Shown piece after piece: positions 29,225-38,690 of a stretch of DNA of 64,000 nucleotides. The DNA is taken from positions 75,366 through 139,365 of the forward strand of contig CAZGQR010000003.1 in assembly GCA_964527765.1 (NCBI GenBank), in the 5' to 3' direction. Every line of letters starts with the position of its first letter. The stretch's first letter is position 1. Made by a program: the position numbers and the translations under genes. The notes under the pieces are model-generated. The model worked only from the letters and a program-made list of their open reading frames with translations. It was not told the origin of the DNA and did no database searches. Source of the DNA: an uncultured Planctomycetia bacterium (GTDB taxonomy: Bacteria; Omnitrophota; Gorgyraeia; Tantalellales; Tantalellaceae).

Positions 29225-29365
29225 TTGACATTATACCGCTAAAGTAGTATTATCCTTTGAGAGAAAAGACCTTTTAAACTGGTCCGGAGAGACCTGAAAA
29301 GGAGCAAAGAATGAATAAATTAAAGTTGATAAGCCTGCTTGTCTCGTGACAGGGAGGCTTTTTTT
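29225..29365 (+). promoter_or_regulatory. pyr operon leader: promoter, PyrR-binding loop, 12-aa leader ORF, attenuator terminator
   Basis: TTGACA, 17-nt spacer, TATTAT at 29225-29253. GGUCCGGAGAGACC at 29281-29294 matches the PyrR-binding consensus RUCCnGnGAGG. Leader [15 protein letters not shown] at 29311-29349 has an AAAAGGAG RBS. A hairpin plus TTTTTTT follows at ~29330-29364. Confidence 0.6.
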
Positions 29366-29407
29366 GTGTCTATGGACCGGGCCAGGGGAAAGAGACAGAG
29401 GGACGAG

Positions 29408-29947
29408 ATGGAACTTAAACTAAAGTCAAGGATACTGGATGCAGAGGGCATAAAAAGAACGCTACAGAGGATATCCCATGAAATACTGGAAAAGAACCAG
29501 GGCGGGGTCGAATTGGCCATAATCGGCATACGGTGCAGAGGAGCATATCTGGCCGAAAGAATAGCGGAGAACATAAAGACGATCGAAGGAAAAGAAACCC
29601 CGGTGGGAGCGCTGGACATCACCATGTACAGAGACGACCTTACGGAGATCGCGGAACAACCGGTGGTGCATTCGACGGAAATAGAGTTCGATATAACAGG
29701 CAAAAAGATCATTCTTGTGGATGATGTCCTGTTTTCCGGGCGGACAGTGAGATGCGCCCTGGATGAGCTTATCGATTTCGGCAGGCCGGCGAATATCCAG
29801 CTGGCGGTTCTTATAGACCGCGGGCACAGGGAATTGCCGATAAGGCCGGATTTTGTCGGGAAGAACATTCCGACGGCAAAGGAAGAAAGCGTCGAAGTGA
29901 GACTGAAAAATGTGGATGGAGTGGAGGAAGTGGTTGTCTTAGCATAA
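29408..29947 (+). CDS. pyrR: bifunctional pyr operon regulator / uracil phosphoribosyltransferase PyrR
   Basis: Start at [11 protein letters not shown] aligns with the PyrR N-terminus. PRPP-binding [12 protein letters not shown]. Confidence 0.85.
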
Positions 29948-29963
29948 AACGGGGACTGAAGCC

Positions 29964-30962
29964 ATGAGCACGAAAAATACCGTAAAATGGACAAAGAAAC
30001 ATCTTCTGGGGATCGAAGACCTTTCCGCGGAAGAAATACAGCTTATACTTGATCATGCCGTGGGGTTCAAGGAAGTGCTGGAGAGGCCCATACCAAAAGT
30101 CCCCACCTTGAGAGGCAAGACCATCGTTAATATGTTCTGTGAGCCCTCCACAAGGACGCGCTCTTCGTTCGAGCTTGCGGCCAAGAGATTGAGCGCGGAC
30201 ACGCTGAATCTTGCGACGGCATCTTCCAGCTTCCTTAAAGGAGAAACCCTGAAAGATACGGCCAGGAACATCGAGGCGATGAAAGTGGACATGATCGTCA
30301 TGCGCCACGCGTGCCCCGGAGCGCCCCATTTTCTTTCCGGCTGTGTAGGGGCATCGGTGATCAACGCCGGGGACGGAGCCCACGAGCACCCCACCCAGGC
30401 CCTGCTTGACGTGTTCACGATCAGGGAAAAGCTGGGGAAGGTAAAGGGCCTTAAGGTCAGCATAATAGGGGATATTGCCCATTCGAGGGTCGCCCGGAGC
30501 AATATCTGGGCATTAACAAAATTGGGAGCAAAGGTTACGGTGTGCGGTCCCAAGACTTTGATCCCGGTCGAGATAGAAAAAATGGGGGTCAGAGCCACGT
30601 ATGACGTAAAAGAAGCGCTGAGTGGGGCGGATGTCCTGAACATGTTAAGGATACAGCTCGAAAGGCAGAAAAGGCCCCTTTTCCCCAGCATACGGGAGTA
30701 TGTAAGGGAGTTCGGCATAAACTCCCGCCTTTTAGAGAAACACGCTAAAAAAGAGGTGATGATAATGCATCCGGGGCCGATAAATAGAGGCGTTGAGCTC
30801 AGCCAGGATGTTGCGGACGGAGAGTATTCCGTTATACTCAACCAGGTAACGAACGGTGTTGCAGTAAGAATGGCGGTGTTATTTCTGCTGGGACACGTTA
30901 AAAAGGAACAAGTGGGGGAACAGCACAAGAAAATGATGAAAAACAAGCTGACAATCCCATAA
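29964..30962 (+). CDS. pyrB: aspartate carbamoyltransferase catalytic subunit
   Basis: STRTR motif ([11 protein letters not shown]) and HPGP. About 20 aa longer than usual at the C-terminus. Confidence 0.9.
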
Positions 30963-30996: not shown

Positions 30997-32280
30997 ATGA
31001 AAATTTTGATAAAAAACGGAAGGATCATAGACCCGTCTCAAGGAATTGATAAGACAGGGGACATATTGGTCGAGAACGGGAAGATCGCACAGGCCGGCGG
31101 GTCCATAAAGGACAAAAACGCTAAAACGATTTTAGCCAAAGACAAGATCGTAGCTCCCGGTTTTGTGGACATGCATACCCATTTGAGGGAGCCCGGCCGG
31201 GAGGAAGTCGAGACGATAGAAACGGCCCTGAGCGCGGCGGTCAGCGGCGGTTTTACGACGGTCAGCGCCATGCCGAATACGGAACCCCCCTGCGACAGCC
31301 AGGCCCATGTGAAGTTTCTGCTTGAGAGGGCGGCTGAGGTCAAGCTGGCAAATATATTACCGGTAGGGACGATCACCAAGAACAGGGAAGGCCTCGAGAT
31401 GTCCGAGATGGGGGAATTAAGACAGGCAGGATGCCTTGCGGTTTCGGATGACGGGGATCCCGTGGCCGATCCGGGGCTTATGAGGATAGCCATGGAATAT
31501 GCGTCCATGGTCGATCTCCTCGTGATATCCCACTGCGAGGATAAGGCCCTTTCTGCCGAAGGCGTCATGCACGAGGGATACTGGTCAACGGTCCTTGGGC
31601 TGAAGCCCATACCGGCAGAGGCGGAGAGCACGATAGTCGAACGCGATATCCGTCTTGCGGGATTGGCCGGGGCCAGGCTGCACATCGCCCATGTCTCCAC
31701 GGCCGAGAGCGTGGAAATCATAAAAAACGCCAAGAAAGAAGGCGTGAAGGTAACCGCGGAAGTTACGCCGCATCATTTCACGCTCAGCGATGAAGCCCTT
31801 AAGACATTCGATACCAACATGAAGGTTTCGCCTCCGCTGCGGTCCGCAAAAGACGTACAGGCCTTAAAGGAGGGGATCAGAGACGGAACGATCGATGTCA
31901 TAGCCACGGATCATGCCCCGCACCTGGCGAACGAGAAAGAAAAGGAATTCGACTACGCGCCTTTCGGGATGATCGGCCTGGAAACGGCGCTCCCGCTGGC
32001 GGTCATGAAACTCGTTGATGAAGGATATCTGGATTGGCCCGGGCTTATCCGGAAACTGTCAACAAGGCCTTCGGAAATATTGAAATACAACAGGGGCTCG
32101 CTGGAAAAGGGAGCCCCTGCCGATATCGTGATAATCGACCCGGCCAAAGAATGGATTTATACCAGGGACAGGATCAGGTCGCGCTCGAGTAATTCTCCGT
32201 TCATCGGCTGGAGGATGAAGTCAGCGGTGACAGATGTCATTGTCGGGGGAAAGATCGTCCTGAAGACGGCGGGAATGTAG
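30997..32280 (+). CDS. pyrC: dihydroorotase
   Basis: Metal-binding DMHTHLREPG, 427 aa. Confidence 0.9.
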   Translation: MKILIKNGRIIDPSQGIDKTGDILVENGKIAQAGGSIKDKNAKTILAKDKIVAPGFVDMHTHLREPGREEVETIETALSAAVSGGFTTVSAMPNTEPPCDSQAHVKFLLERAAEVKLANILPVGTITKNREGLEMSEMGELRQAGCLAVSDDGDPVADPGLMRIAMEYASMVDLLVISHCEDKALSAEGVMHEGYWSTVLGLKPIPAEAESTIVERDIRLAGLAGARLHIAHVSTAESVEIIKNAKKEGVKVTAEVTPHHFTLSDEALKTFDTNMKVSPPLRSAKDVQALKEGIRDGTIDVIATDHAPHLANEKEKEFDYAPFGMIGLETALPLAVMKLVDEGYLDWPGLIRKLSTRPSEILKYNRGSLEKGAPADIVIIDPAKEWIYTRDRIRSRSSNSPFIGWRMKSAVTDVIVGGKIVLKTAGM

Positions 32281-32297: not shown

Positions 32298-32765
32298 ATG
32301 CATAAAGAGAGATTCATAGTTACCAAGGAGCTCGGGAAGCTGGCAAAGTGGCTGCGGATACTGGGGTATGACAGCGTGTATTATGACGGGAAAGAGACCG
32401 CCGGGCTTGTGATACAGGCGCTGAGGGACAAGAGGGTCCTCATCACGCGCAGTTCCGCGCTGACAAAATATACGGGGGTGCAGGTAGTGGTCGTAAGATC
32501 TGACCATGTGGAAGAACAGCTGGAGCAGGTCACGCGCGAACTCGGCCTGCTGCTGGATGAAGAGCTCCTGTTCCAGCGGTGCGTCGAATGCAATGCCCCG
32601 CTGGAAGATATCAGCAAAAAAAAGGTCGAAGGAAAGGTGCCGGAATATGTATTTGAGACGCAGGAGCGCTTCAAGCGGTGCCCGCAGTGCGACAAAGTAT
32701 TCTGGAAAGGGACACATTGGGACATGGTGAAAAAATGGCTGGCAAAAAAGCGTCAAAAAAAGTAA
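32298..32765 (+). CDS. Mut7-C RNase-domain protein (PIN-like nuclease plus zinc ribbon, DUF82)
   Basis: LGKLAKWLRILGYDSVY matches the Mut7-C signature. C-terminal CxxC...CxxC (CVECNAPL...CPQCDKVF). Confidence 0.7.
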   Translation: MHKERFIVTKELGKLAKWLRILGYDSVYYDGKETAGLVIQALRDKRVLITRSSALTKYTGVQVVVVRSDHVEEQLEQVTRELGLLLDEELLFQRCVECNAPLEDISKKKVEGKVPEYVFETQERFKRCPQCDKVFWKGTHWDMVKKWLAKKRQKK

Positions 32766-33547
32766 TAAAAGCGAAAATATGCCTCAATAAAAGCATCGCC
32801 CCGGATTATTTTGTGATGCGGATCGAATCGGGATGGCTGGCCCGAAACTCTTCTCCCGGCCAGTTCGTCACGGTCAAGATCCAGGAAAATGTGAAGGACC
32901 CCCTGCTCAGGATCCCTCTTGGCGTGCACGCGATCCGCGGAAAGGGGATCGACCTGCTGTACAAAGTCGTCGGGCCCGGGACCCGCTGCTTGAGCTCAAG
33001 GAACAAGGGCGAGAAGATCGATGTGCTGGGGCCGTTGGGAAACGGATTCGATCTTGCCCCGCTTGCACGCGGGCAAGACCCCAGGGTTGTCGTGGTCGCA
33101 GGCGGGCACGGCATCGCGCCGCTTTATGCTCTGGCCGAAGCCATTACGACAAAACGGAAAAAAGTAGATTTTTTCAACGGCGTATATACCAGAAAAAATA
33201 TCGTCTGCTCAAAAGAACTTAAGAAGCTCGGCGCAAGAGTTCGTATAGCGACAGAAGACGGGACGCAGGGGCACAAGGGATACGTGACGGATCTTCTGGA
33301 GAAGAAACTTAAAGCCGGCGCGTATGACCCGAAGAACACGGTCATATATGCCTGCGGCCCCAGGCCGATGCTTGCCGCTCTTGCAAAAATAGCCGAACGT
33401 TTCGGGGTGCCTGCCCAGGTCTCGCTTGATGCATACATGGCTTGCGGGATCGGCGCCTGCCTCGGCTGCTCTGTCATGACGACAGACGGGTATCGGCTCG
33501 TGTGCAAGGACGGCCCCGTGTTTGACGCCCGGGAGATCGTATGGTAA
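32735..33547 (+). CDS. pyrK: dihydroorotate dehydrogenase electron-transfer subunit
   Basis: Start at MAGKKASKK aligns with the PyrK N-terminus. FAD/NAD-binding fold and a C-terminal 2Fe-2S Cys cluster (CGIGACLGC). Overlaps the Mut7-C gene by 31 nt. Confidence 0.8.
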   Translation: MAGKKASKKVIKAKICLNKSIAPDYFVMRIESGWLARNSSPGQFVTVKIQENVKDPLLRIPLGVHAIRGKGIDLLYKVVGPGTRCLSSRNKGEKIDVLGPLGNGFDLAPLARGQDPRVVVVAGGHGIAPLYALAEAITTKRKKVDFFNGVYTRKNIVCSKELKKLGARVRIATEDGTQGHKGYVTDLLEKKLKAGAYDPKNTVIYACGPRPMLAALAKIAERFGVPAQVSLDAYMACGIGACLGCSVMTTDGYRLVCKDGPVFDAREIVW

Positions 33548-33581: not shown

Positions 33582-34499
33582 ATGGACTTACAGGTAACAA
33601 TAGGGAAAATAAGGTTCAAGAACCCGATATGGGTGGCTTCGGGGACCTTTGGGTACGGAGAAGAGTTCCTGGATTTTGTTGACCTCGATAATATAGGCGC
33701 GATAGTCACAAAGACCCTGACGCCGGAGGCGCGGGAAGGCAACCCCCCGCCCAGGCTCGTGGAAACGCCCTCGGGGCTGCTTAACTCCATAGGGCTTGAG
33801 AATGAAGGCGTCGATCATTTTAAAGCGGAGCATTACCCATTCCTGAAAAAACTTAAGACAAGAATAATAGTAAGCATCGGGGGCCTGAGAAAAGAAGAAT
33901 TCGAAAGATGCGCGGAAAAACTTTCCGCGGAGGACCCTCCGGACGCTATTGAGATCAATCTTTCCTGTCCAAATGTCACCCATGCCGGGACGCGGCACGC
34001 CTATATATCCCAGGATCCCCGCGCAACGGAGAGAATAGTTTCAGCCTGCCGGAGGAAGGCCGGGTGCGCCGTCATAGCAAAACTTACGCCGGATGTAACG
34101 GATATCGCTGTCATAGCCGGGGCGGCAGAGGCCGGCGGCGCCGATGCCGTGTCCTTGATCAATACCTGCCCGGGGATAGCGGTGGATGCGGAAGAAATGA
34201 AGCCGGTACTCGGCAACATTGTCGGGGGCCTGAGCGGGCCGGCGATAAAGCCGATCGCCCTGAAAGCGGTCCGGGATGTGTACGGGAAGGTAAAGATCCC
34301 GGTGATAGGAATAGGCGGCGTGATGACGGGTATTGACGTTGCAGAGTTCATGTTGTGCGGTGCCTGTGCGGTACAGGTGGGAACGGCGAACCTTGCGGAC
34401 CCCGTCGCGTATGACAGGATCCTTGGAGAGTTCGAGACATATCTGAGACAAAAGAAAATAGAGAAAGCAAGCTCGCTGGTGGGCAGACTCAAAACTTAG
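33582..34499 (+). CDS. pyrD: dihydroorotate dehydrogenase catalytic subunit (class 1B)
   Basis: TIM-barrel DHODH motifs (NLSCPN, GIGGV). Confidence 0.9.
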   Translation: MDLQVTIGKIRFKNPIWVASGTFGYGEEFLDFVDLDNIGAIVTKTLTPEAREGNPPPRLVETPSGLLNSIGLENEGVDHFKAEHYPFLKKLKTRIIVSIGGLRKEEFERCAEKLSAEDPPDAIEINLSCPNVTHAGTRHAYISQDPRATERIVSACRRKAGCAVIAKLTPDVTDIAVIAGAAEAGGADAVSLINTCPGIAVDAEEMKPVLGNIVGGLSGPAIKPIALKAVRDVYGKVKIPVIGIGGVMTGIDVAEFMLCGACAVQVGTANLADPVAYDRILGEFETYLRQKKIEKASSLVGRLKT

Positions 34500-34526: not shown

Positions 34527-35228
34527 ATGGCGGCGAAAGAAAAACTAATAGTGGCATTGGACGCGGAAAGCCCGGGCCAGGCCCTCAAGCTTATAGACAT
34601 TCTCTCCGATGAGGTCGAGATCTTCAAGGTAGGGATCGCACCGTTTACCGGGTTTGGGCAGAAAGTGCTGGAAAAGCTGCATTCGGCCGGGAAGAAAGTT
34701 TTTCTGGACCTTAAGTTCCATGATATCCCAAATACGGTCGCCGGCGCGGCGCGGGCCGCCGCGGAGAAAGGCGTGTTCATGATGAATTTTCACTGTCTTG
34801 GAGGCCGCAGCATGCTGGAAGCGGCGGCGAAAGGCGCAAGGGAAGCGAAAAGCGGGGGAAAGCCGATCCTGCTGGGCGTCACGATACTCACCAGCATGAA
34901 CAATGAGGATATGCGCTCCATAGGGATCGCGGGAGATCTGCAGGAGAAAGTGATCGAACTCGCCCGGCTTGCCGCTGACAGCGGGCTTGACGGCGTGGTA
35001 GCTTCGGCGAAGGAAGCTCGCGCCATCAAGGAGAAAATAGGAAAAGATTTTCTGGTCGTGACCCCGGGGGTCCGCCCGGAGTGGGCCGCCCGGGGCGATC
35101 AAAAAAGGATACTGACCCCGAAACAGGCGATGTCCGAAGGGGCGGACTATATCGTTGTCGGCAGGCCGATAATCCAGGCGGAGGATCCGGCTGCCGCGGC
35201 GAAAAAAATAATAGAGGAAATGGGTTAA
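34527..35228 (+). CDS. pyrF: orotidine-5'-phosphate decarboxylase
   Basis: LIVALD...DLKFHDIPNT motifs. Confidence 0.9.
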   Translation: MAAKEKLIVALDAESPGQALKLIDILSDEVEIFKVGIAPFTGFGQKVLEKLHSAGKKVFLDLKFHDIPNTVAGAARAAAEKGVFMMNFHCLGGRSMLEAAAKGAREAKSGGKPILLGVTILTSMNNEDMRSIGIAGDLQEKVIELARLAADSGLDGVVASAKEARAIKEKIGKDFLVVTPGVRPEWAARGDQKRILTPKQAMSEGADYIVVGRPIIQAEDPAAAAKKIIEEMG

Positions 35229-35265: not shown

Positions 35266-35841
35266 ATGCAAGAGATGGAAATAATGGATATTTTTACCAA
35301 GACGGGAGCTTACCAGCAGGGGCACTTTTTGCTGTCCAGCGGGTTACATTCGGGAGCGTATCTGCAATGCGCGCTGGTCCTGCAGGACCCGATCCTTGCT
35401 GCGAGACTATGCGGCGTCCTGGCGGCAAAATTCCGGACGGATGAACCCGATATCGTGATCGGACCGGCCATGGGCGGCATAGTCCTGGCCTATGAACTGG
35501 CCAGGAACTTGAATGCCCGGGCGATCTTTGCGGAAAGGGACAAAGAGGGGAAGATGGCGCTTCGCAGAGGGTTCAGGATCGTGCCGGGAAGCAAAGTGCT
35601 GGTCGCTGAAGACGTGCTTACGACCGGAGGCTCGGTCAAAGAGGTAGTATCCCTTATAGAGAAAGACGGCATAGCCCCGATAGGAATAGCATGCCTGGTG
35701 GACAGGAGCGCGAAGAAAATCGATTTTGGTGGAATAAAGCACGAAAGCCTGATAAAATTGGATATTCCCACTTTCACCAAAGAAACATGCCCTCTTTGCC
35801 AGGAAGGCATACCTGTCGTGAAGCCGGGATCCAGGGGCTGA
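35266..35841 (+). CDS. pyrE: orotate phosphoribosyltransferase
   Basis: PRPP-binding VLVAEDVLTTGGS. Confidence 0.9.
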   Translation: MQEMEIMDIFTKTGAYQQGHFLLSSGLHSGAYLQCALVLQDPILAARLCGVLAAKFRTDEPDIVIGPAMGGIVLAYELARNLNARAIFAERDKEGKMALRRGFRIVPGSKVLVAEDVLTTGGSVKEVVSLIEKDGIAPIGIACLVDRSAKKIDFGGIKHESLIKLDIPTFTKETCPLCQEGIPVVKPGSRG

Positions 35842-35856
35842 CAAAAGGAGAAGATC

Positions 35857-36474
35857 ATGGAAATGGAACTGAAAAGCATAATCGAAAAAATAAAAGAGGA
35901 AGGCGTCGAGGAAGGGCAGAAAAAAGCCACCGATATAATCGGCCAGGCCGAAAATAAGGCCAAGGAAACCATAGAAGCGGCCGAAAAGGAAAAGGAAGAT
36001 ACAGTAAAGAATGCCGCAAAAGAGGCCGAGAGGCTGCGGAAGAACGGGGAAGAAGCCTTGCGCCAGGCCTCGCGCGATGTTTTGCTTGGGCTGAAAGAAG
36101 AGATCACCGCGCTTTTTGACAGCGTGATAAAAGAGGAGGTGGCGAAGCAGCTCTCGCCGGAGGTTCTTAAAGATATGATAATTACCCTTGTGCAGAAGTT
36201 CAAAAGGGACGAAGAACCTGATATAGAGATCCTGCTGAGCGACAAGGATAAAAAAGCCCTGGAAAAGGTCCTTTTGGCCAGGTTCAAGGAAAAGATGGCA
36301 AAAGGCGTGACCTTAAAGGCGTCTCCCAAAGTGGAAAAGGGATTCCTGATGGGAGGCAAAGGAAAAGGGGCTTATTACGACTTCACGGACGAAGCGATAG
36401 CAGAAGTGTTTAAAGCGTTTCTGAACCCCAAAATAGCGGATCTCTTAAATCCCGGAAAAAAAGATGTCAAATAA
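35857..36474 (+). CDS. V-type ATP synthase subunit E
   Basis: Lys/Glu-rich coiled-coil N-terminus and a C-terminal globular part. First gene of the V-ATPase cluster. Confidence 0.7.
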   Translation: MEMELKSIIEKIKEEGVEEGQKKATDIIGQAENKAKETIEAAEKEKEDTVKNAAKEAERLRKNGEEALRQASRDVLLGLKEEITALFDSVIKEEVAKQLSPEVLKDMIITLVQKFKRDEEPDIEILLSDKDKKALEKVLLARFKEKMAKGVTLKASPKVEKGFLMGGKGKGAYYDFTDEAIAEVFKAFLNPKIADLLNPGKKDVK

Positions 36475-36967
36475 GTATTATTATCTTGGGGCGTCGCTCC
36501 CGTACGTCAGTTTCGGGGACGACCCTCCTTTCAGCAGGGAAGGGTTTATCGCGGAATGCGAAAAGTGGCTCTCGCCGGCCGACATGCAAGCGCTGCTCTC
36601 GGCGGACCTGCACTGCCGGGAGGAAAAATGCGAGGGCATTCCGCTCTTAAGAAGATGGAAGAGCTTTGACGCGGCCTTGAAGGCGGAGCTGGCGCGTATC
36701 AGGGCGGCGGCAAAAAAGGGCGAAGGATACAAGACCTCCGACATACTTAAGAACATCATGGGCAAGGAGACCCCTCTTCTCATGGAACGGGCTTTGGAAA
36801 AACTCAGGTGGATATTCATCGAAGAATGCAGCAAACAATATTTTTACGATATAAACGCGCTGGCCTCCTATTTTTTAAAGGTGCAGATCCTTGAAAGGCT
36901 GGCAACATTCAACAAAGACGAAGGCGAAAAATTCTTTTACAGTTTGTGCGAGGTAAAATATGAGTAA
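36464..36967 (+). CDS. DUF2764-like protein conserved between V-ATPase E and A in chlamydial and spirochaetal operons
   Basis: 167 aa. Its position matches the uncharacterised ORF between atpE and atpA in those operons. Overlaps both neighbours. Confidence 0.5.
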   Translation: MSNKYYYLGASLPYVSFGDDPPFSREGFIAECEKWLSPADMQALLSADLHCREEKCEGIPLLRRWKSFDAALKAELARIRAAAKKGEGYKTSDILKNIMGKETPLLMERALEKLRWIFIEECSKQYFYDINALASYFLKVQILERLATFNKDEGEKFFYSLCEVKYE

Positions 36968-38690
36968 ACAGTTGGGCAGAATAGCGGGCATTAACGGGAA
37001 CATGATAACGGTGAAATTCCCGAGCGATATCATCCAGAACGAGGTCGCGTACGTGCTGAGCCGGGGGAAAAGGCTGAAGGCTGAAGTCGTGAAGATCAGA
37101 GGCAATGACGCGTTCCTCCAGGTGTTCGAATACACGAAAGGCATAAAGGTCGGGGACGAAGTCGAATTTTCGGGAAAGATGCTTTCGGTGCAGCTGGGGC
37201 CGGGGCTCCTGACCCAGATCTATGACGGATTACAGAACCCGCTTCCGGAACTTGCCGAAAAATTCGGTTTTTTCCTGCCGGTGGGAGAAGAGCTTAACGC
37301 TCTTTCGTCCGAGAAGGAATGGAAATTTACCCCGATCGCCAAAAAGGGAGACAAGGTCACGAGAGGCTGTTTTCTCGGGGAAGTGCCGGAGGGGATCTTC
37401 AAGCATAAGATAATGGTGCCTTTCGATCTGCGGGAAGAGTATACGGTCGAGAAAATGGCGCCCCCGGGGGATTATACGATAGACAAGAAAATCGCGGAGC
37501 TGAAGGACTCGAAAGGAAACGCGATCGACGTGACCATGACATTCGACTGGCCGGTAAAAATACCCGTAAGGGCGTATGAAGATAAGATACAGCCCAAAGG
37601 TTCCCTTATAACGAAGGTCAGGATCATCGATACGCTCTTTCCGGTTGCCAGGGGCGGGACATACTGCATCCCCGGGCCCTTCGGTGCGGGCAAGACCGTG
37701 CTTCAGCAGCTGACCAGCCGTTATGCGGACGTCGACATCGTTATCATAGCGGCCTGCGGGGAAAGAGCCGGTGAAGTAGTCGAAACATTGAAAAATTTCC
37801 CCAAGCTTACGGATCCGCGGACGGGCAGATCCCTGATGGAAAGGACCGTAATTATCTGCAACACCTCCTCGATGCCGGTAGCCGCGAGAGAATCTTCCGT
37901 ATATACCGCCTCCGCGCTGGGGGAATATTACCGGCAGATGGGGCTCAACGTGCTGCTTCTGGCCGATTCGACTTCACGCTGGGCTCAGGCGATGAGGGAG
38001 ATCTCCGGAAGGCTTGAGGAGATCCCCGGCGAGGAAGCATATCCGGCTTATCTGGAATCCCGCATAGCCAGTTTTTATGAAAGGGCCGGCCTGGTGAAGC
38101 TTCATAACGGGGGGCTGGGAAGTCTTACCATAGGGGGCACGGTAAGCCCGGCGGGGGGCAATTTTGAAGAGCCGGTCACGCAGGGGACCCTTAAGGTCGT
38201 GGGGGCCTTTCACGGCCTGTCCCGGGAAAGGGCCGAAGCAAGAAAATATCCTTCGGTCGATCCTCTCGCGAGCTGGAGCAAGTACAAAAGCATCATACCG
38301 CAGGATCAGATCGATACGGCAAGGGAAGTGCTGTTCAAGGGCGAGCAGGTCAGCCAGATGATGAAAGTCGTGGGAGAGGAAGGGACGTCCCTGGAAGACT
38401 TCGTCGTCTATCTCAAGAGCGAATTCCTTGATAACGTGTATCTCCAGCAGAACGGTTTTGACGAGGTAGATGCCTCCACATCGGCCGACCGGCAGAAATA
38501 CGTTTTTGCGAAAGTGATCGGGGTGCTGAGACGCGAGTTTCCGTTTAAGGACAAGGGGCAGGCAAGGGATTTCTTCTACAATCTGCGGCACAAGTTCATA
38601 GACTGGAATTATAAGCAGTGGGGATCCGACGAGTTTAAGGATCAGGAAAAGGAAATAAACGATTTACTGGAAGGTGAGAAACAGCCATGA
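36960..38690 (+). CDS. V-type ATP synthase catalytic subunit A
   Basis: Walker A GPFGAGKT plus the V-type non-homologous region. 576 aa. Confidence 0.9.

What the first reader, a model, noticed from the sequence alone, without database searches (positions are those of the whole stretch)
32298..32765. Mut7-C (PIN-like nuclease plus Zn-ribbon) gene embedded in the pyrimidine operon and overlapping pyrK
A clear Mut7-C/DUF82 RNase-domain protein sits between pyrC and pyrK. Its 3' end overlaps the pyrK start by about 30 nt, so it is almost certainly co-transcribed and translationally linked with the de novo UMP genes. Mut7-C proteins have no assigned function in bacteria. Placing a nuclease inside a nucleotide-biosynthesis operon is unexpected and may point to a role in RNA turnover or nucleotide salvage.
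Basis: partly seen in the sequence, partly recalled or inferred. Interest (0 to 1): 0.5.

Follow-up and report, generated by a model that had tools for sequence, protein, structure and literature searches.

The report
Disarmed Mut7-C gene in pyrimidine operon
A small zinc-binding Mut7-C protein really is built into the pyrimidine-synthesis operon of this Omnitrophota bacterium and its relatives, but it belongs to a lineage-specific subfamily that has lost the family's hallmark catalytic aspartate, is missing from many sister genomes, and in most relatives sits next to a uracil/hypoxanthine DNA-repair nuclease, so it is more likely a nucleic-acid-binding helper than a nuclease.

Summary
ORF 32298-32765 (+), 155 aa, is a full-length Mut7-C protein (PF01927, E=2.7e-44). 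It starts 17 nt after pyrC and overlaps pyrK by 31 nt, inside pyrR-pyrB-pyrC-X-pyrK-pyrD-pyrF-pyrE, downstream of a promoter-like site and a PyrR attenuator.

The linkage is conserved. Across 87 related loci, every member of a "T-x-E" subfamily with enough upstream flank (25/25) lies directly after pyrC. None of 44 canonical "D-x-M" Mut7-C genes does.

The nuclease reading is weak:
- The only family-wide active-site Asp is Thr here, and the window protein keeps one of four canonical acidic positions.
- The one solved relative (8Q66) is an RNA-binding helper domain.

Other findings:
- The gene is under strong purifying selection and co-diverges with PyrC (r=0.93).
- It is absent from 7 of 8 inspected sister operons.
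- Outside the window's clade it is always followed by an Endonuclease Q gene (27/27).
- Its two nearest canonical relatives overlap PolX genes.

Best reading (about 0.4): a non-hydrolytic nucleic-acid-binding accessory protein, ancestrally paired with EndoQ and co-induced with UMP synthesis. I class it as a new variant of a known family. Its function is untested.

The parts
29225..29253 (+). sigma-70-like promoter (TTGACA-17-TATTAT, 11 of 12 matches) upstream of the operon
   Evidence: This is a consensus match only.
29266..29367 (+). PyrR-binding attenuator leader, containing a terminator-like hairpin plus T-run at 29338-29358
   Evidence: Rfam RF00515 scores 48.4 bits, E=2.5e-4, full model 1-115, just under the gathering score of 54. 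The homologous position in L023 scores 57.9 bits, above gathering.
29366..29947 (+). pyrR (193 aa by public gene calls, GTG start; the mechanical ORF begins at TTG 29339)
   Evidence: Pribosyltran / weak UPRTase domains; gene call; start codon checked.
29964..30962 (+). pyrB (aspartate carbamoyltransferase)
   Evidence: OTCace_N plus OTCace domains.
30997..32280 (+). pyrC (dihydroorotase, 427 aa). It is the invariant upstream neighbour of the T-x-E Mut7-C subfamily.
   Evidence: Amidohydro_1 / DHOase domains. pyrC lies directly upstream in 25 of 25 informative T-x-E loci.
32298..32765 (+). Mut7-C protein of the Omnitrophota 'T-x-E' subfamily (155 aa, pI 9.3): an alpha/beta N-domain plus a Cys4 zinc ribbon
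32322..32330 (+). Codons T9-K10-E11. Thr replaces the family-invariant Asp after strand 1. Glu11 is invariant in the subfamily, where canonical members have Met.
32580..32690 (+). Zinc ribbon, CxxC-(29)-CxxC (C95, C98, C128, C131)
   Evidence: These columns are invariant; translation confirmed.
32735..33547 (+). pyrK (270 aa). Its first 31 nt overlap the 3' end of the Mut7-C gene in another frame.
   Evidence: NAD_binding_1 plus DHODB_Fe-S_bind domains. Same start in public gene calls. L001 PyrK aligns from residue 1.
33582..34499 (+). pyrD
   Evidence: DHO_dh domain.
34527..35228 (+). pyrF
   Evidence: OMPdecase domain.
35266..35841 (+). pyrE
   Evidence: Pribosyltran domain.

Best explanation
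Shown. The ORF encodes a stand-alone MUT7-C-fold protein: a four-stranded alpha/beta domain plus a Cys4 zinc ribbon. It belongs to an Omnitrophota-specific subfamily in which the family's hallmark Asp after strand 1 has become Thr/Ser and an invariant Glu has appeared two residues later. It is a tightly coupled cistron of the pyrimidine operon, immediately 3' of pyrC. It is inherited vertically with pyrC under strong purifying selection, and it has been lost repeatedly.

Inferred. It no longer works as a canonical metal-dependent PIN-type nuclease. It acts as a basic, nucleic-acid-binding accessory protein. The ancestral arrangement in the phylum was pyrC - mut7C* - endoQ. In that arrangement the protein would have served as a substrate-binding helper for a PHP-type nuclease (Endonuclease Q, which nicks DNA at uracil or hypoxanthine). 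This would parallel the way the MUT7-C domain helps the exonuclease domain of animal MUT-7/EXD3, and the way canonical Mut7-C genes are coupled to PolX.

Placing the pair behind the PyrR attenuator would raise nucleic-acid repair or processing capacity together with de novo UMP synthesis when pyrimidine nucleotides run low. In the window's clade the endoQ cistron has been deleted from the operon and only mut7C* remains between pyrC and pyrK. Any partner here must therefore be encoded elsewhere, or the protein acts alone on nucleic acid.
For: Family, fold and zinc ribbon.

Active site:
- Position 9 is T 0.89 / S 0.08 in 151 subfamily members, against D 1.00 in 183 canonical members.
- Position 11 is E 1.00, against M 0.81.
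- Of the four acidic positions 9/34/52/69 the subfamily keeps 0-2 (mode 1), canonical members mostly 3-4. The window has T, T, S, D.

Only experimental properties known for the family:
[quoted passage not shown] The isolated domains bound RNA only weakly and served as negative controls in the ribonuclease assays.
- Rv0579 purifies tightly bound to RNA.
- The window protein has pI 9.3.

Operon membership:
- 17-nt gap to pyrC and 31-nt overlap with pyrK.
- pyrC-stop to mut7C-start spacing is mostly -20..+26 nt, with many 4-nt overlaps, in 27 loci.
- PyrR site plus promoter plus terminator hairpin.

Conserved context: 25/25 against 0/44 for pyrC upstream.

Selection and inheritance:
- dN/dS about 0.11 in the one unsaturated pair. 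dN is 0.13-0.25 with dS saturated in the others.
- Distance correlation with PyrC is r=0.93, slope 0.90.

EndoQ and PolX links:
- EndoQ lies downstream in all 27 T-x-E loci outside the close clade, with overlapping or near-abutting junctions in several (coordinates).
- The EndoQ identity rests on PfuEndoQ, E=1.9e-55.
- L010 has pyrC-mut7C*-endoQ-pyrK-pyrD-pyrF, which is the window order plus endoQ.
- The canonical proteins most similar to the subfamily (P0079, P0115) each overlap the 3' end of a PolX (PHP) gene by 16-19 nt. One of these sits in an EndoQ-EndoV-PolX-Mut7C cluster.
- The literature reports a strong PolX-Mut7-C association in Halobacteria.
Against: - No endoQ, polX or endoV homologue lies in the 64-kb window. 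I could not establish whether this genome has one elsewhere.
- L098 carries pyrC-endoQ with no mut7C*, so EndoQ does not need it.
- The constant neighbour is pyrC, not endoQ.
- Adjacency to both can be explained as an inherited gene order trimmed only by deletions, so it may say little about partnership.
- The subfamily-invariant Glu11 plus D/E69 could form a re-tooled catalytic site, and invariance is not what a simply dead site predicts.
- Fusions of canonical Mut7-C to THUMP and NTPase_1 domains point to RNA rather than DNA.
- No binding, activity or interaction has been measured for any member of this subfamily.
Confidence: 0.4

Rival explanations
1. Active ribonuclease with a remodelled site. 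Glu11, D/E69 and sometimes D52 rebuild a metal site. The enzyme degrades RNA to feed pyrimidine salvage, or processes the long pyr polycistron, when PyrR derepresses the operon.
For: - Glu11 is 100% conserved and D/E69 is 94% conserved in the subfamily. That implies a functional constraint at the old active-site end of the sheet.
- Pfam names the family an RNase domain.
- The gene is co-regulated with UMP synthesis.
- A SLOG/TIGR00725 nucleotide-processing gene shares the cluster in distant relatives.
Against: - The one family-wide catalytic Asp is gone, and the window protein keeps one of four acidic positions.
- Thr/Ser at position 9 is equally well explained as a helix N-cap replacement, since helix 10-21 begins right after it.
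- No Mut7-C domain has been shown to cleave anything. Isolated MUT-7 and EXD3 CTDs served as negative controls in RNase assays.
- Structural similarity to PIN or Toprim nucleases is insignificant: Foldseek E=0.11-0.18, TM about 0.3.
- The gene is dispensable in most sister operons.
Confidence: 0.2
2. Post-transcriptional RNA-binding regulator of the operon itself. The protein binds the pyr mRNA (or a tRNA) without cutting it and tunes translation or stability of the genes downstream of pyrC.
For: - RNA binding is the only demonstrated property of the family.
- The protein is basic, pI 9.3.
- It always sits at the pyrC / distal-gene junction and overlaps the next start codon in the window and in L096.
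- Canonical relatives are fused to THUMP.
Against: - No conserved RNA element was found around the gene. Rfam on 12 loci returned only the PyrR leader and tRNAs.
- The downstream genes differ between clades: pyrK in one, endoQ/fld/carA in the other.
- Sister operons work without it.
Confidence: 0.15
3. Protein partner or regulatory subunit of dihydroorotase or the ATCase-DHOase complex. This would be a functional analogue of PyrI, which also has an N-terminal alpha/beta domain, a C-terminal 4-Cys zinc domain and about 150 aa.
For: - It is always translationally coupled to pyrC.
- It evolves at the same rate as PyrC, r=0.93.
- No pyrI is present in the operon.
- Subfamily-specific conserved hydrophobic residues I39 and L42, and R43, lie on helix 2 where canonical members have charged or variable residues. 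This hints at a new interface.
Against: - There is no sequence or fold similarity to PyrI.
- It is absent from 7 of 8 closely related operons, including one whose PyrC is 78% identical.
- The distance correlation is expected from shared ancestry alone.
- Surface exposure of I39 and L42 could not be checked, because no coordinates are available.
Confidence: 0.12
4. Functionless hitch-hiker: a decaying or selfish remnant that merely persists in the operon.
For: Patchy presence among close relatives and loss of canonical catalytic residues.
Against: - dN/dS is about 0.1.
- 15 columns are invariant across 39 diverse members.
- It diverges no faster than PyrC.
- The reading frame is intact in all 151 T-x-E subfamily sequences collected.
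- No antitoxin-like neighbour is present.
Confidence: 0.04

Closest known systems
Stand-alone prokaryotic Mut7-C proteins (Pfam PF01927 / COG1656), e.g. the Thermococcus eurythermalis protein used as the minimal MUT7-C fold in PMC11347159
   Same: Same length, same domain order (alpha/beta CTD-N plus Cys4 zinc-ribbon CTD-C), same invariant core (G13, W18, L19, R20, G23, R46, Q74, 4 Cys, W136, H140), and a full-length HMM match.
   Different: - D9 becomes T/S, M11 becomes an invariant E, and D34 and D52 are mostly lost.
- The subfamily forms a largely separate clade: 134 of 151 members fall in one NJ clade with only 3 canonical sequences.
- Its gene context (after pyrC) is seen in 0 of 44 canonical loci.
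MUT7-C domain of C. elegans MUT-7 / human EXD3 (PDB 8Q66)
   Different: The animal domain is fused to a DEDDy exonuclease and carries large insertions in the zinc finger. Here the protein stands alone, and the candidate partner nucleases are PHP-type enzymes encoded by neighbouring genes in relatives. None is present in this window.
PolX-linked Mut7-C genes (Halobacteria, per PMC9226535 and PMC5499597; L100 and L101 here)
   Same: A small Mut7-C gene translationally coupled to a DNA-repair nuclease or polymerase with a PHP domain. P0079 and P0115 are the canonical sequences most similar to the subfamily.
   Different: Those proteins keep the canonical D-x-M and TRD motifs and follow polX. The window protein has T-x-E and TRS and follows pyrC.
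Rv0579 of M. tuberculosis (Ubl-Mut7-C fusion)
   Same: A bacterial Mut7-C protein. It is non-essential and purifies tightly bound to RNA.
   Different: [quoted passage not shown] Its acidic residues were not examined here.
PyrI, regulatory chain of class B aspartate carbamoyltransferase
   Same: Resemblance in outline only, recalled from general knowledge: about 150 aa, an N-terminal alpha/beta domain, a C-terminal 4-Cys zinc domain, and a gene inside a pyr operon.
   Different: There is no detectable sequence or fold relationship. The gene follows pyrC rather than pyrB and is dispensable in sister genomes.

Membership tests
Mut7-C / MUT7-C (Pfam PF01927) | Significant, full-length match to the family profile | tested here: met
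   E=2.7e-44, 151.2 bits against a cut-off of 23.3; residues 5-146 on profile positions 2-144 of 146.
Mut7-C / MUT7-C (Pfam PF01927) | Cys4 zinc ribbon at the C-terminal end of the alpha/beta domain | tested here: met
   C95, C98, C128 and C131 are invariant in 39- and 120-sequence alignments. Zinc binding itself was not tested.
Mut7-C / MUT7-C (Pfam PF01927) | Fold equivalent to the solved MUT-7 C-terminal domain (8Q66) | tested here: met
Mut7-C / MUT7-C (Pfam PF01927) | Asp directly after strand 1, the only active-site residue conserved family-wide (PMC5499597) | tested here: not met
   Thr9 in the window protein. The subfamily has T 0.89 / S 0.08; canonical members have D 1.00. The alignment is ungapped around F-I-V-[T/D]-x-[E/M]-L-G-K-L-A-K-W-L-R.
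Catalytically competent PIN-like nuclease | Cluster of three to four acidic residues at the C-terminal ends of the core strands | tested here: not met
   Positions 9/34/52/69 are T, T, S, D. The subfamily keeps 0-2 acids (104 of 151 keep one). Canonical members keep 3-4 in 137 of 183.
Catalytically competent PIN-like nuclease | Structural similarity to solved PIN domains | tested here: inconclusive
Catalytically competent PIN-like nuclease | Metal-dependent nuclease activity | not testable with these tools
   Needs purified protein. No Mut7-C domain has a demonstrated activity in the papers read.
PyrR-controlled pyrimidine biosynthetic operon (as a cistron) | Same transcription unit as the pyr genes | tested here: met
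   17-nt gap after pyrC, 31-nt overlap with pyrK, same strand, and only a weak 5-bp terminator-like match nearby. No transcript data.
PyrR-controlled pyrimidine biosynthetic operon (as a cistron) | PyrR-binding attenuator in the leader | tested here: inconclusive
   RF00515 at 29266-29367 scores 48.4 bits, E=2.5e-4, below the gathering score of 54. An 11-of-12 promoter match and a hairpin plus T-run at the right places support it. The L023 homologue scores 57.9 bits.
PyrR-controlled pyrimidine biosynthetic operon (as a cistron) | Constant component of the operon in related genomes | tested here: not met
   7 of 8 operons found through PyrC (62-78% identity) lack it. The sample was partly chosen for having no matching contig. 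By matching contig length or record, roughly 20 of the 120 closest PyrC clusters appear to sit on contigs that also carry the gene.
Mut7-C-like toxin of a toxin-antitoxin pair (COG4634 / PIN_10 type) | Adjacent small antitoxin gene (e.g. DUF433) | tested here: not met
   The neighbours are pyrC and pyrK (or endoQ in relatives). The Pfam hit is PF01927 itself.
PyrI-type ATCase regulatory subunit | Sequence or fold similarity to PyrI allosteric and zinc domains | tested here: not met
   No PyrI family in Pfam or NCBIfam hits. No PyrI chain in the PDB sequence or fold searches.
mut7C*-endoQ two-gene module of Omnitrophota pyr operons (defined here) | Endonuclease Q gene immediately downstream | tested here: not met
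   The window has pyrK downstream and no EndoQ homologue in 64 kb. All 27 T-x-E loci outside the close clade do have it.

The most novel reading that the evidence does not exclude
Omnitrophota hard-wire a nucleic-acid module into the PyrR-controlled pyrimidine operon. The module is a catalytically disarmed MUT7-C protein plus Endonuclease Q. As a result, repair of uracil or hypoxanthine in DNA rises together with de novo UMP synthesis under pyrimidine shortage. More generally, stand-alone prokaryotic Mut7-C proteins would be substrate-binding helper subunits of PHP-type repair nucleases (EndoQ, PolX). That would give this orphan family its first function and would mirror the helper role of MUT7-C in animal MUT-7/EXD3.
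Probability: 0.2. Interest if true: 0.65.

Novelty: new variant of a known kind. Interest (0 to 1): 0.5.

Why it matters
[quoted passage not shown] This locus defines a clean natural experiment. One clade has swapped the hallmark Asp for Thr, gained an invariant Glu, and become locked to pyrC inside a metabolite-controlled operon. Its nearest canonical relatives are instead locked to PolX.

That gives concrete, cheap tests:
- binding versus cleavage;
- E11 and D69 mutants;
- stimulation of EndoQ or PolX;
- interaction with PyrC.

It also exposes an unreported placement of a uracil/hypoxanthine DNA endonuclease inside pyrimidine biosynthesis operons. If functional, this would link nucleotide-pool sensing to DNA base repair. 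[quoted passage not shown]

Tried and rejected
- PDB sequence search with the protein gave nothing significant; the best hit was E=0.5. The relative 8Q66 was found only by fold search.
- NCBIfam gave no family.
- The PyrI-analogue idea found no sequence or fold support, and the gene is dispensable in sister operons.
- The toxin-antitoxin reading fails because there is no antitoxin neighbour.
- I searched the window for a second Mut7-C and for EndoQ, flavodoxin, SLOG, carA, PolX and EndoV. None was found.
- I tried to learn whether the window's genome has EndoQ elsewhere by matching contig lengths and organism names in the EndoQ hit list. This was inconclusive, because only the top 120 of 8000 hits are shown and none belongs to a close-clade contig.
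- Cluster-member lookup for organism names of P0001, P0079, P0091 and P0115 returned no names, so the taxonomy of L100 and L101 is only inferred from 55-61% EndoQ identity to Omnitrophota EndoQs.
- I prepared paired PyrC+linker+Mut7-C sequences for a pseudo-multimer AF2 run and then dropped it.
- Rfam on 12 related loci, looking for a conserved RNA element next to the gene, found only PyrR leaders and tRNAs.
- PolX, EndoQ and EndoV are not general neighbours of canonical Mut7-C. None occurs in the 54 D-x-M loci from the scans. The DNA-repair link is therefore lineage-specific, not family-wide.
- The first genome-contig scan used the single protein and returned only 7 loci. An alignment query would have been the better use of that capped search.
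Full report
**What is there.**
The ORF at 32298-32765 (+) is real. Its 155-aa product matches Pfam PF01927 (Mut7-C) end to end, with E=2.7e-44. It has 450 homologues at E<=1e-3 in the 90%-identity protein collection, and the named close ones come from Candidatus Omnitrophota. A further 4454 homologues appear among 50%-identity representatives.

The surrounding genes on the same strand are pyrR, pyrB, pyrC, the ORF, pyrK, pyrD, pyrF and pyrE, followed by V-type ATPase genes. pyrC ends 17 nt before the ORF. With the ATG at 32735 as start, pyrK overlaps the ORF's last 31 nt. Independent public gene calls on contigs carrying the identical protein give the same two genes and the same overlap.

Upstream of pyrR there are three regulatory features:
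- an 11-of-12 sigma-70-like promoter at 29225-29253;
- a full-length match to the Rfam PyrR-binding element at 29266-29367 (48.4 bits, E=2.5e-4, just under the gathering score of 54);
- a hairpin plus T-run at 29338-29358 inside that element.

The corresponding leader in a distant relative (L023) scores above the gathering threshold. There is no convincing terminator between pyrR and pyrE.

**The protein is a Mut7-C, but not a canonical one.**

The motif around the first strand reads F-I-V-T-K-E-L-G-K-L-A-K-W-L-R. Canonical members read F-x-x-D-x-M-L-G-R-L-A-K-W-L-R, and the alignment is ungapped.

| Position | 151 'T-x-E' sequences | 183 'D-x-M' sequences |
|---|---|---|
| 9 | T 0.89 / S 0.08 | D 1.00 |
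| 11 | E 1.00 | M 0.81 |
| 34 | variable | D 0.64 |
| 52 | N/S/D | D 0.68 |
| 69 | D/E | D/E |

In the model, positions 9, 34, 52 and 69 all lie just after strands 1-4, at the starts of the following helices. That is the location expected for a PIN- or Toprim-like acidic cluster.

The window protein has T, T, S, D at these positions. The subfamily keeps 0-2 of the four acids (104 of 151 keep one), whereas 137 of 183 canonical proteins keep 3-4. Matelska et al. [quoted passage not shown] That residue is the one missing here.

Thr/Ser at position 9 can be read as a like-for-like helix N-cap replacement. The invariant Glu11, and the subfamily-specific I39, L42 and R43, show that the site was remodelled under selection and has not simply decayed.

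Excluding positions 9 and 11, a neighbour-joining tree puts 134 of the 151 T-x-E sequences in one clade with only 3 canonical sequences.

**How good is the 'PIN-like nuclease' label?**
Busetto et al. (PMC11347159) solved 8Q66. They found no significant similarity to PIN domains (TM about 0.3) and described the prokaryotic minimal unit as Toprim-like plus a zinc finger. They showed that the MUT7-C domain of MUT-7 and EXD3 contributes to RNA binding, and that the isolated domains, used as negative controls in the ribonuclease assays, bound RNA only weakly.

The only bacterial member studied, Rv0579, purifies tightly bound to RNA, and its RNase activity could not be assessed. The window protein is basic, with pI 9.3.

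**The pyr linkage is conserved and subfamily-specific.**
I collected 87 loci encoding relatives, 7 from reference genomes and 80 from metagenomes. I mapped the window's pyr proteins onto them.
- Every T/S-x-E locus with more than 300 nt of upstream sequence (25 of 25, plus L031 whose motif was not parsed) has pyrC directly upstream, normally as pyrR-pyrB-pyrC-mut7C.
- None of 44 D-x-M loci with equivalent flank has any pyr neighbour.
- The pyrC-stop to mut7C-start spacing is mostly -20 to +26 nt, with many 4-nt ATGA-type overlaps. This is typical of translational coupling.
- Mut7C* identity tracks PyrC identity in the same genomes. Over 171 genome pairs, Pearson r=0.93, slope 0.90.
- The one unsaturated pair gives dN/dS of about 0.11. 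The other pairs have dN of 0.13-0.25 with saturated dS.

The gene is therefore vertically inherited with pyrC and under strong purifying selection.

**But it is dispensable.**
I started instead from PyrC homologues with 62-78% identity to the window's PyrC and inspected eight operons.
- Seven go straight from pyrC to pyrK: L091, L092, L093 (Candidatus Tantalella remota), L094, L095 (PyrC 78% identical), L097 and L099.
- Several of these have the same parA-parB ... V-ATPase synteny as the window.
- Only L096 has the gene. It is of the T-x-E type and overlaps pyrK by 44 nt.

This sample was partly chosen from PyrC clusters with no matching Mut7-C contig, so it overstates absence. By matching contig length or record, roughly 20 of the 120 closest PyrC clusters appear to sit on contigs that also carry the gene. 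Together with the co-divergence result, the pattern is one of ancestral presence and repeated loss.

**An unexpected second neighbour.**
In the window's own clade (Mut7-C 67% identical or more) the downstream gene is pyrK. In all 27 T-x-E loci outside that clade the gene immediately downstream is a 412-aa protein. That protein matches Pyrococcus furiosus Endonuclease Q over its full length (5zb8, E=1.9e-55; also TIGR00375). In several loci the two genes overlap or abut (L012, L024, L026, L023, L010).

EndoQ nicks DNA 5' of uracil, hypoxanthine and abasic sites (PMC4357722 and PMC5961232, listed). In those loci the cluster continues with flavodoxin, a tRNA-Arg(CCG), a SLOG/TIGR00725 gene, carA and, where seen, carB.

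L010 has pyrB-pyrC-mut7C*-endoQ-pyrK-pyrD-pyrF, which is the window's order plus endoQ. L098 has pyrC-endoQ with no Mut7-C. All observed states follow from an ancestral pyrC-mut7C*-endoQ array by single-gene deletions.

The canonical D-x-M proteins most similar to the subfamily are P0079, P0091 and P0115. The two I could place each overlap the 3' end of a PolX gene (HHH_8, thumb, PHP) by 16-19 nt. In L100 the cluster reads EndoQ-EndoV-PolX-Mut7-C. L100's EndoQ is 55-61% identical over its full length to the Omnitrophota operon EndoQs.

A strong PolX-Mut7-C association has been noted in Halobacteria (PMC9226535; PMC5499597). Another canonical group sits in nusB-ligA-DUF362-Mut7C-DUF3786-recX.

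The link is not family-wide. None of the 54 D-x-M loci from the scans has PolX, EndoQ or EndoV. Other canonical members are fused to THUMP, NTPase_1 or GNAT domains.

**Interpretation.**

*Shown:*
- The protein has a MUT7-C fold and belongs to an Omnitrophota-specific subfamily.
- It lacks the hallmark Asp.
- It is a coupled, PyrR-leader-controlled cistron after pyrC.
- It is selectively maintained where present, yet frequently lost.

*Inferred (confidence about 0.4):*
- It is a non-hydrolytic nucleic-acid-binding accessory protein, by analogy with the helper role of MUT7-C in MUT-7/EXD3.
- It was ancestrally paired with the PHP-type nuclease EndoQ.
- Its expression is tied to pyrimidine shortage through the operon.

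*Main weaknesses:*
- The window has no EndoQ, and I could not determine whether the genome has one elsewhere.
- EndoQ occurs without the gene (L098).
- Adjacency may be inherited order rather than evidence of partnership.
- The invariant Glu11 leaves room for a re-tooled catalytic site.

*Rivals:*
- an active RNase for salvage or mRNA processing (0.2);
- a non-cleaving RNA-binding regulator of the operon (0.15);
- a PyrC or ATCase partner (0.12);
- a functionless remnant (0.04, contradicted by selection).

**Novelty and verdict.**
[quoted passage not shown] I found no paper among those holding 'Mut7-C' that describes a T-x-E subfamily, a pyrC linkage or an EndoQ linkage. A search for Omnitrophota plus pyrimidine returned no title or abstract that addresses this either.

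I class it as a new variant of a known kind. Its interpretation is partly supported: operon membership and conservation hold, while 'nuclease' and 'RNA turnover/salvage' are not supported by the residues or the wider context. I set interest at 0.5. This is a clean, testable lead on an orphan ancient domain and on a possible link between pyrimidine-pool control and uracil-DNA repair, but there are no functional data and the gene is dispensable in sister genomes.

Noticed in passing
L010 2651-3889; L012 4905-6143; L098 5001-6239; 27 loci in all: A full-length Endonuclease Q homologue (PfuEndoQ E=1.9e-55; TIGR00375) is a resident cistron of many Omnitrophota pyr/car operons. It lies directly after mut7C*, or directly after pyrC in L098. 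I found no report of a DNA uracil/hypoxanthine endonuclease inside a pyrimidine biosynthesis operon in the papers searched.
   Followed up: partly
L025 1242-3722: The EndoQ gene here is 826 aa, and the extra part hits Hint / intein-splicing domains weakly (E about 1e-4). The EndoQ similarity is split in two by the insert. It looks like an intein-containing EndoQ.
   Followed up: no
L012 6616-6687; L013 8195-8267; L014 8473-8544; L023 8185-8256; L024 7472-7543; L030 3132-3204; L025 3843-3916: A tRNA-Arg(CCG) gene is embedded on the coding strand inside the cluster, between the flavodoxin/EndoQ genes and the SLOG (TIGR00725) and carA genes. It is conserved across seven metagenome contigs.
   Followed up: no
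L100 1328-5462; L101 474-2644: The canonical (D-x-M) Mut7-C genes most similar to the window protein overlap the 3' end of a PolX (HHH_8 + thumb + PHP) gene by 16-19 nt. L100 reads EndoQ - Endonuclease V - PolX - Mut7-C - nitroreductase - radical SAM, a compact cluster for repair of deaminated bases.
   Followed up: partly
L050 2479-7885 (same order in L022, L032, L037, L045): Another canonical Mut7-C group sits in a conserved nusB - ligA (NAD-dependent DNA ligase) - DUF362 Fe-S protein - Mut7-C - DUF3786 - recX arrangement.
   Followed up: partly
proteins P0148, P0174, P0247, P0215: Domain fusions of Mut7-C are found among 50%-identity representatives: Mut7-C plus NTPase_1 (THEP1-like), ThiI-ferredoxin/THUMP plus Mut7-C (twice), and GNAT acetyltransferase plus Mut7-C. 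The THUMP fusions suggest RNA or tRNA substrates for some canonical members.
   Followed up: no
window 29225-29367: A textbook-looking PyrR attenuation leader: an 11-of-12 sigma-70-like promoter, then the PyrR-binding element (just below the Rfam gathering score), with a terminator hairpin and T-run at 29338-29358 that overlaps the mechanically listed TTG start of pyrR. The real pyrR start is probably the GTG at 29366.
   Followed up: partly
window 32720-32765: The 31-nt Mut7-C/pyrK overlap is A-rich (AAAAAATGG...CAAAAAAGCGTCAAAAAAAG). It encodes a Lys-rich C-terminal tail in one frame and a Lys-rich N-terminal extension of PyrK in the other. The overlap length varies among relatives: 44 nt in L096, while L001 abuts, with the Mut7-C stop codon ending at the base where the PyrK match begins.
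   Followed up: partly
L095 3266-3501; L097 3298-3501: In operons lacking Mut7-C there is an unannotated 200-235 nt spacer between pyrB and pyrC. The window has only 34 nt there.
   Followed up: no
window 35857-38690 and beyond: V-type ATPase subunit genes (E-like, C-like, A) begin 16 nt after pyrE on the same strand. The parA-parB / pyr operon / V-ATPase synteny is shared by many Omnitrophota contigs.
   Followed up: no
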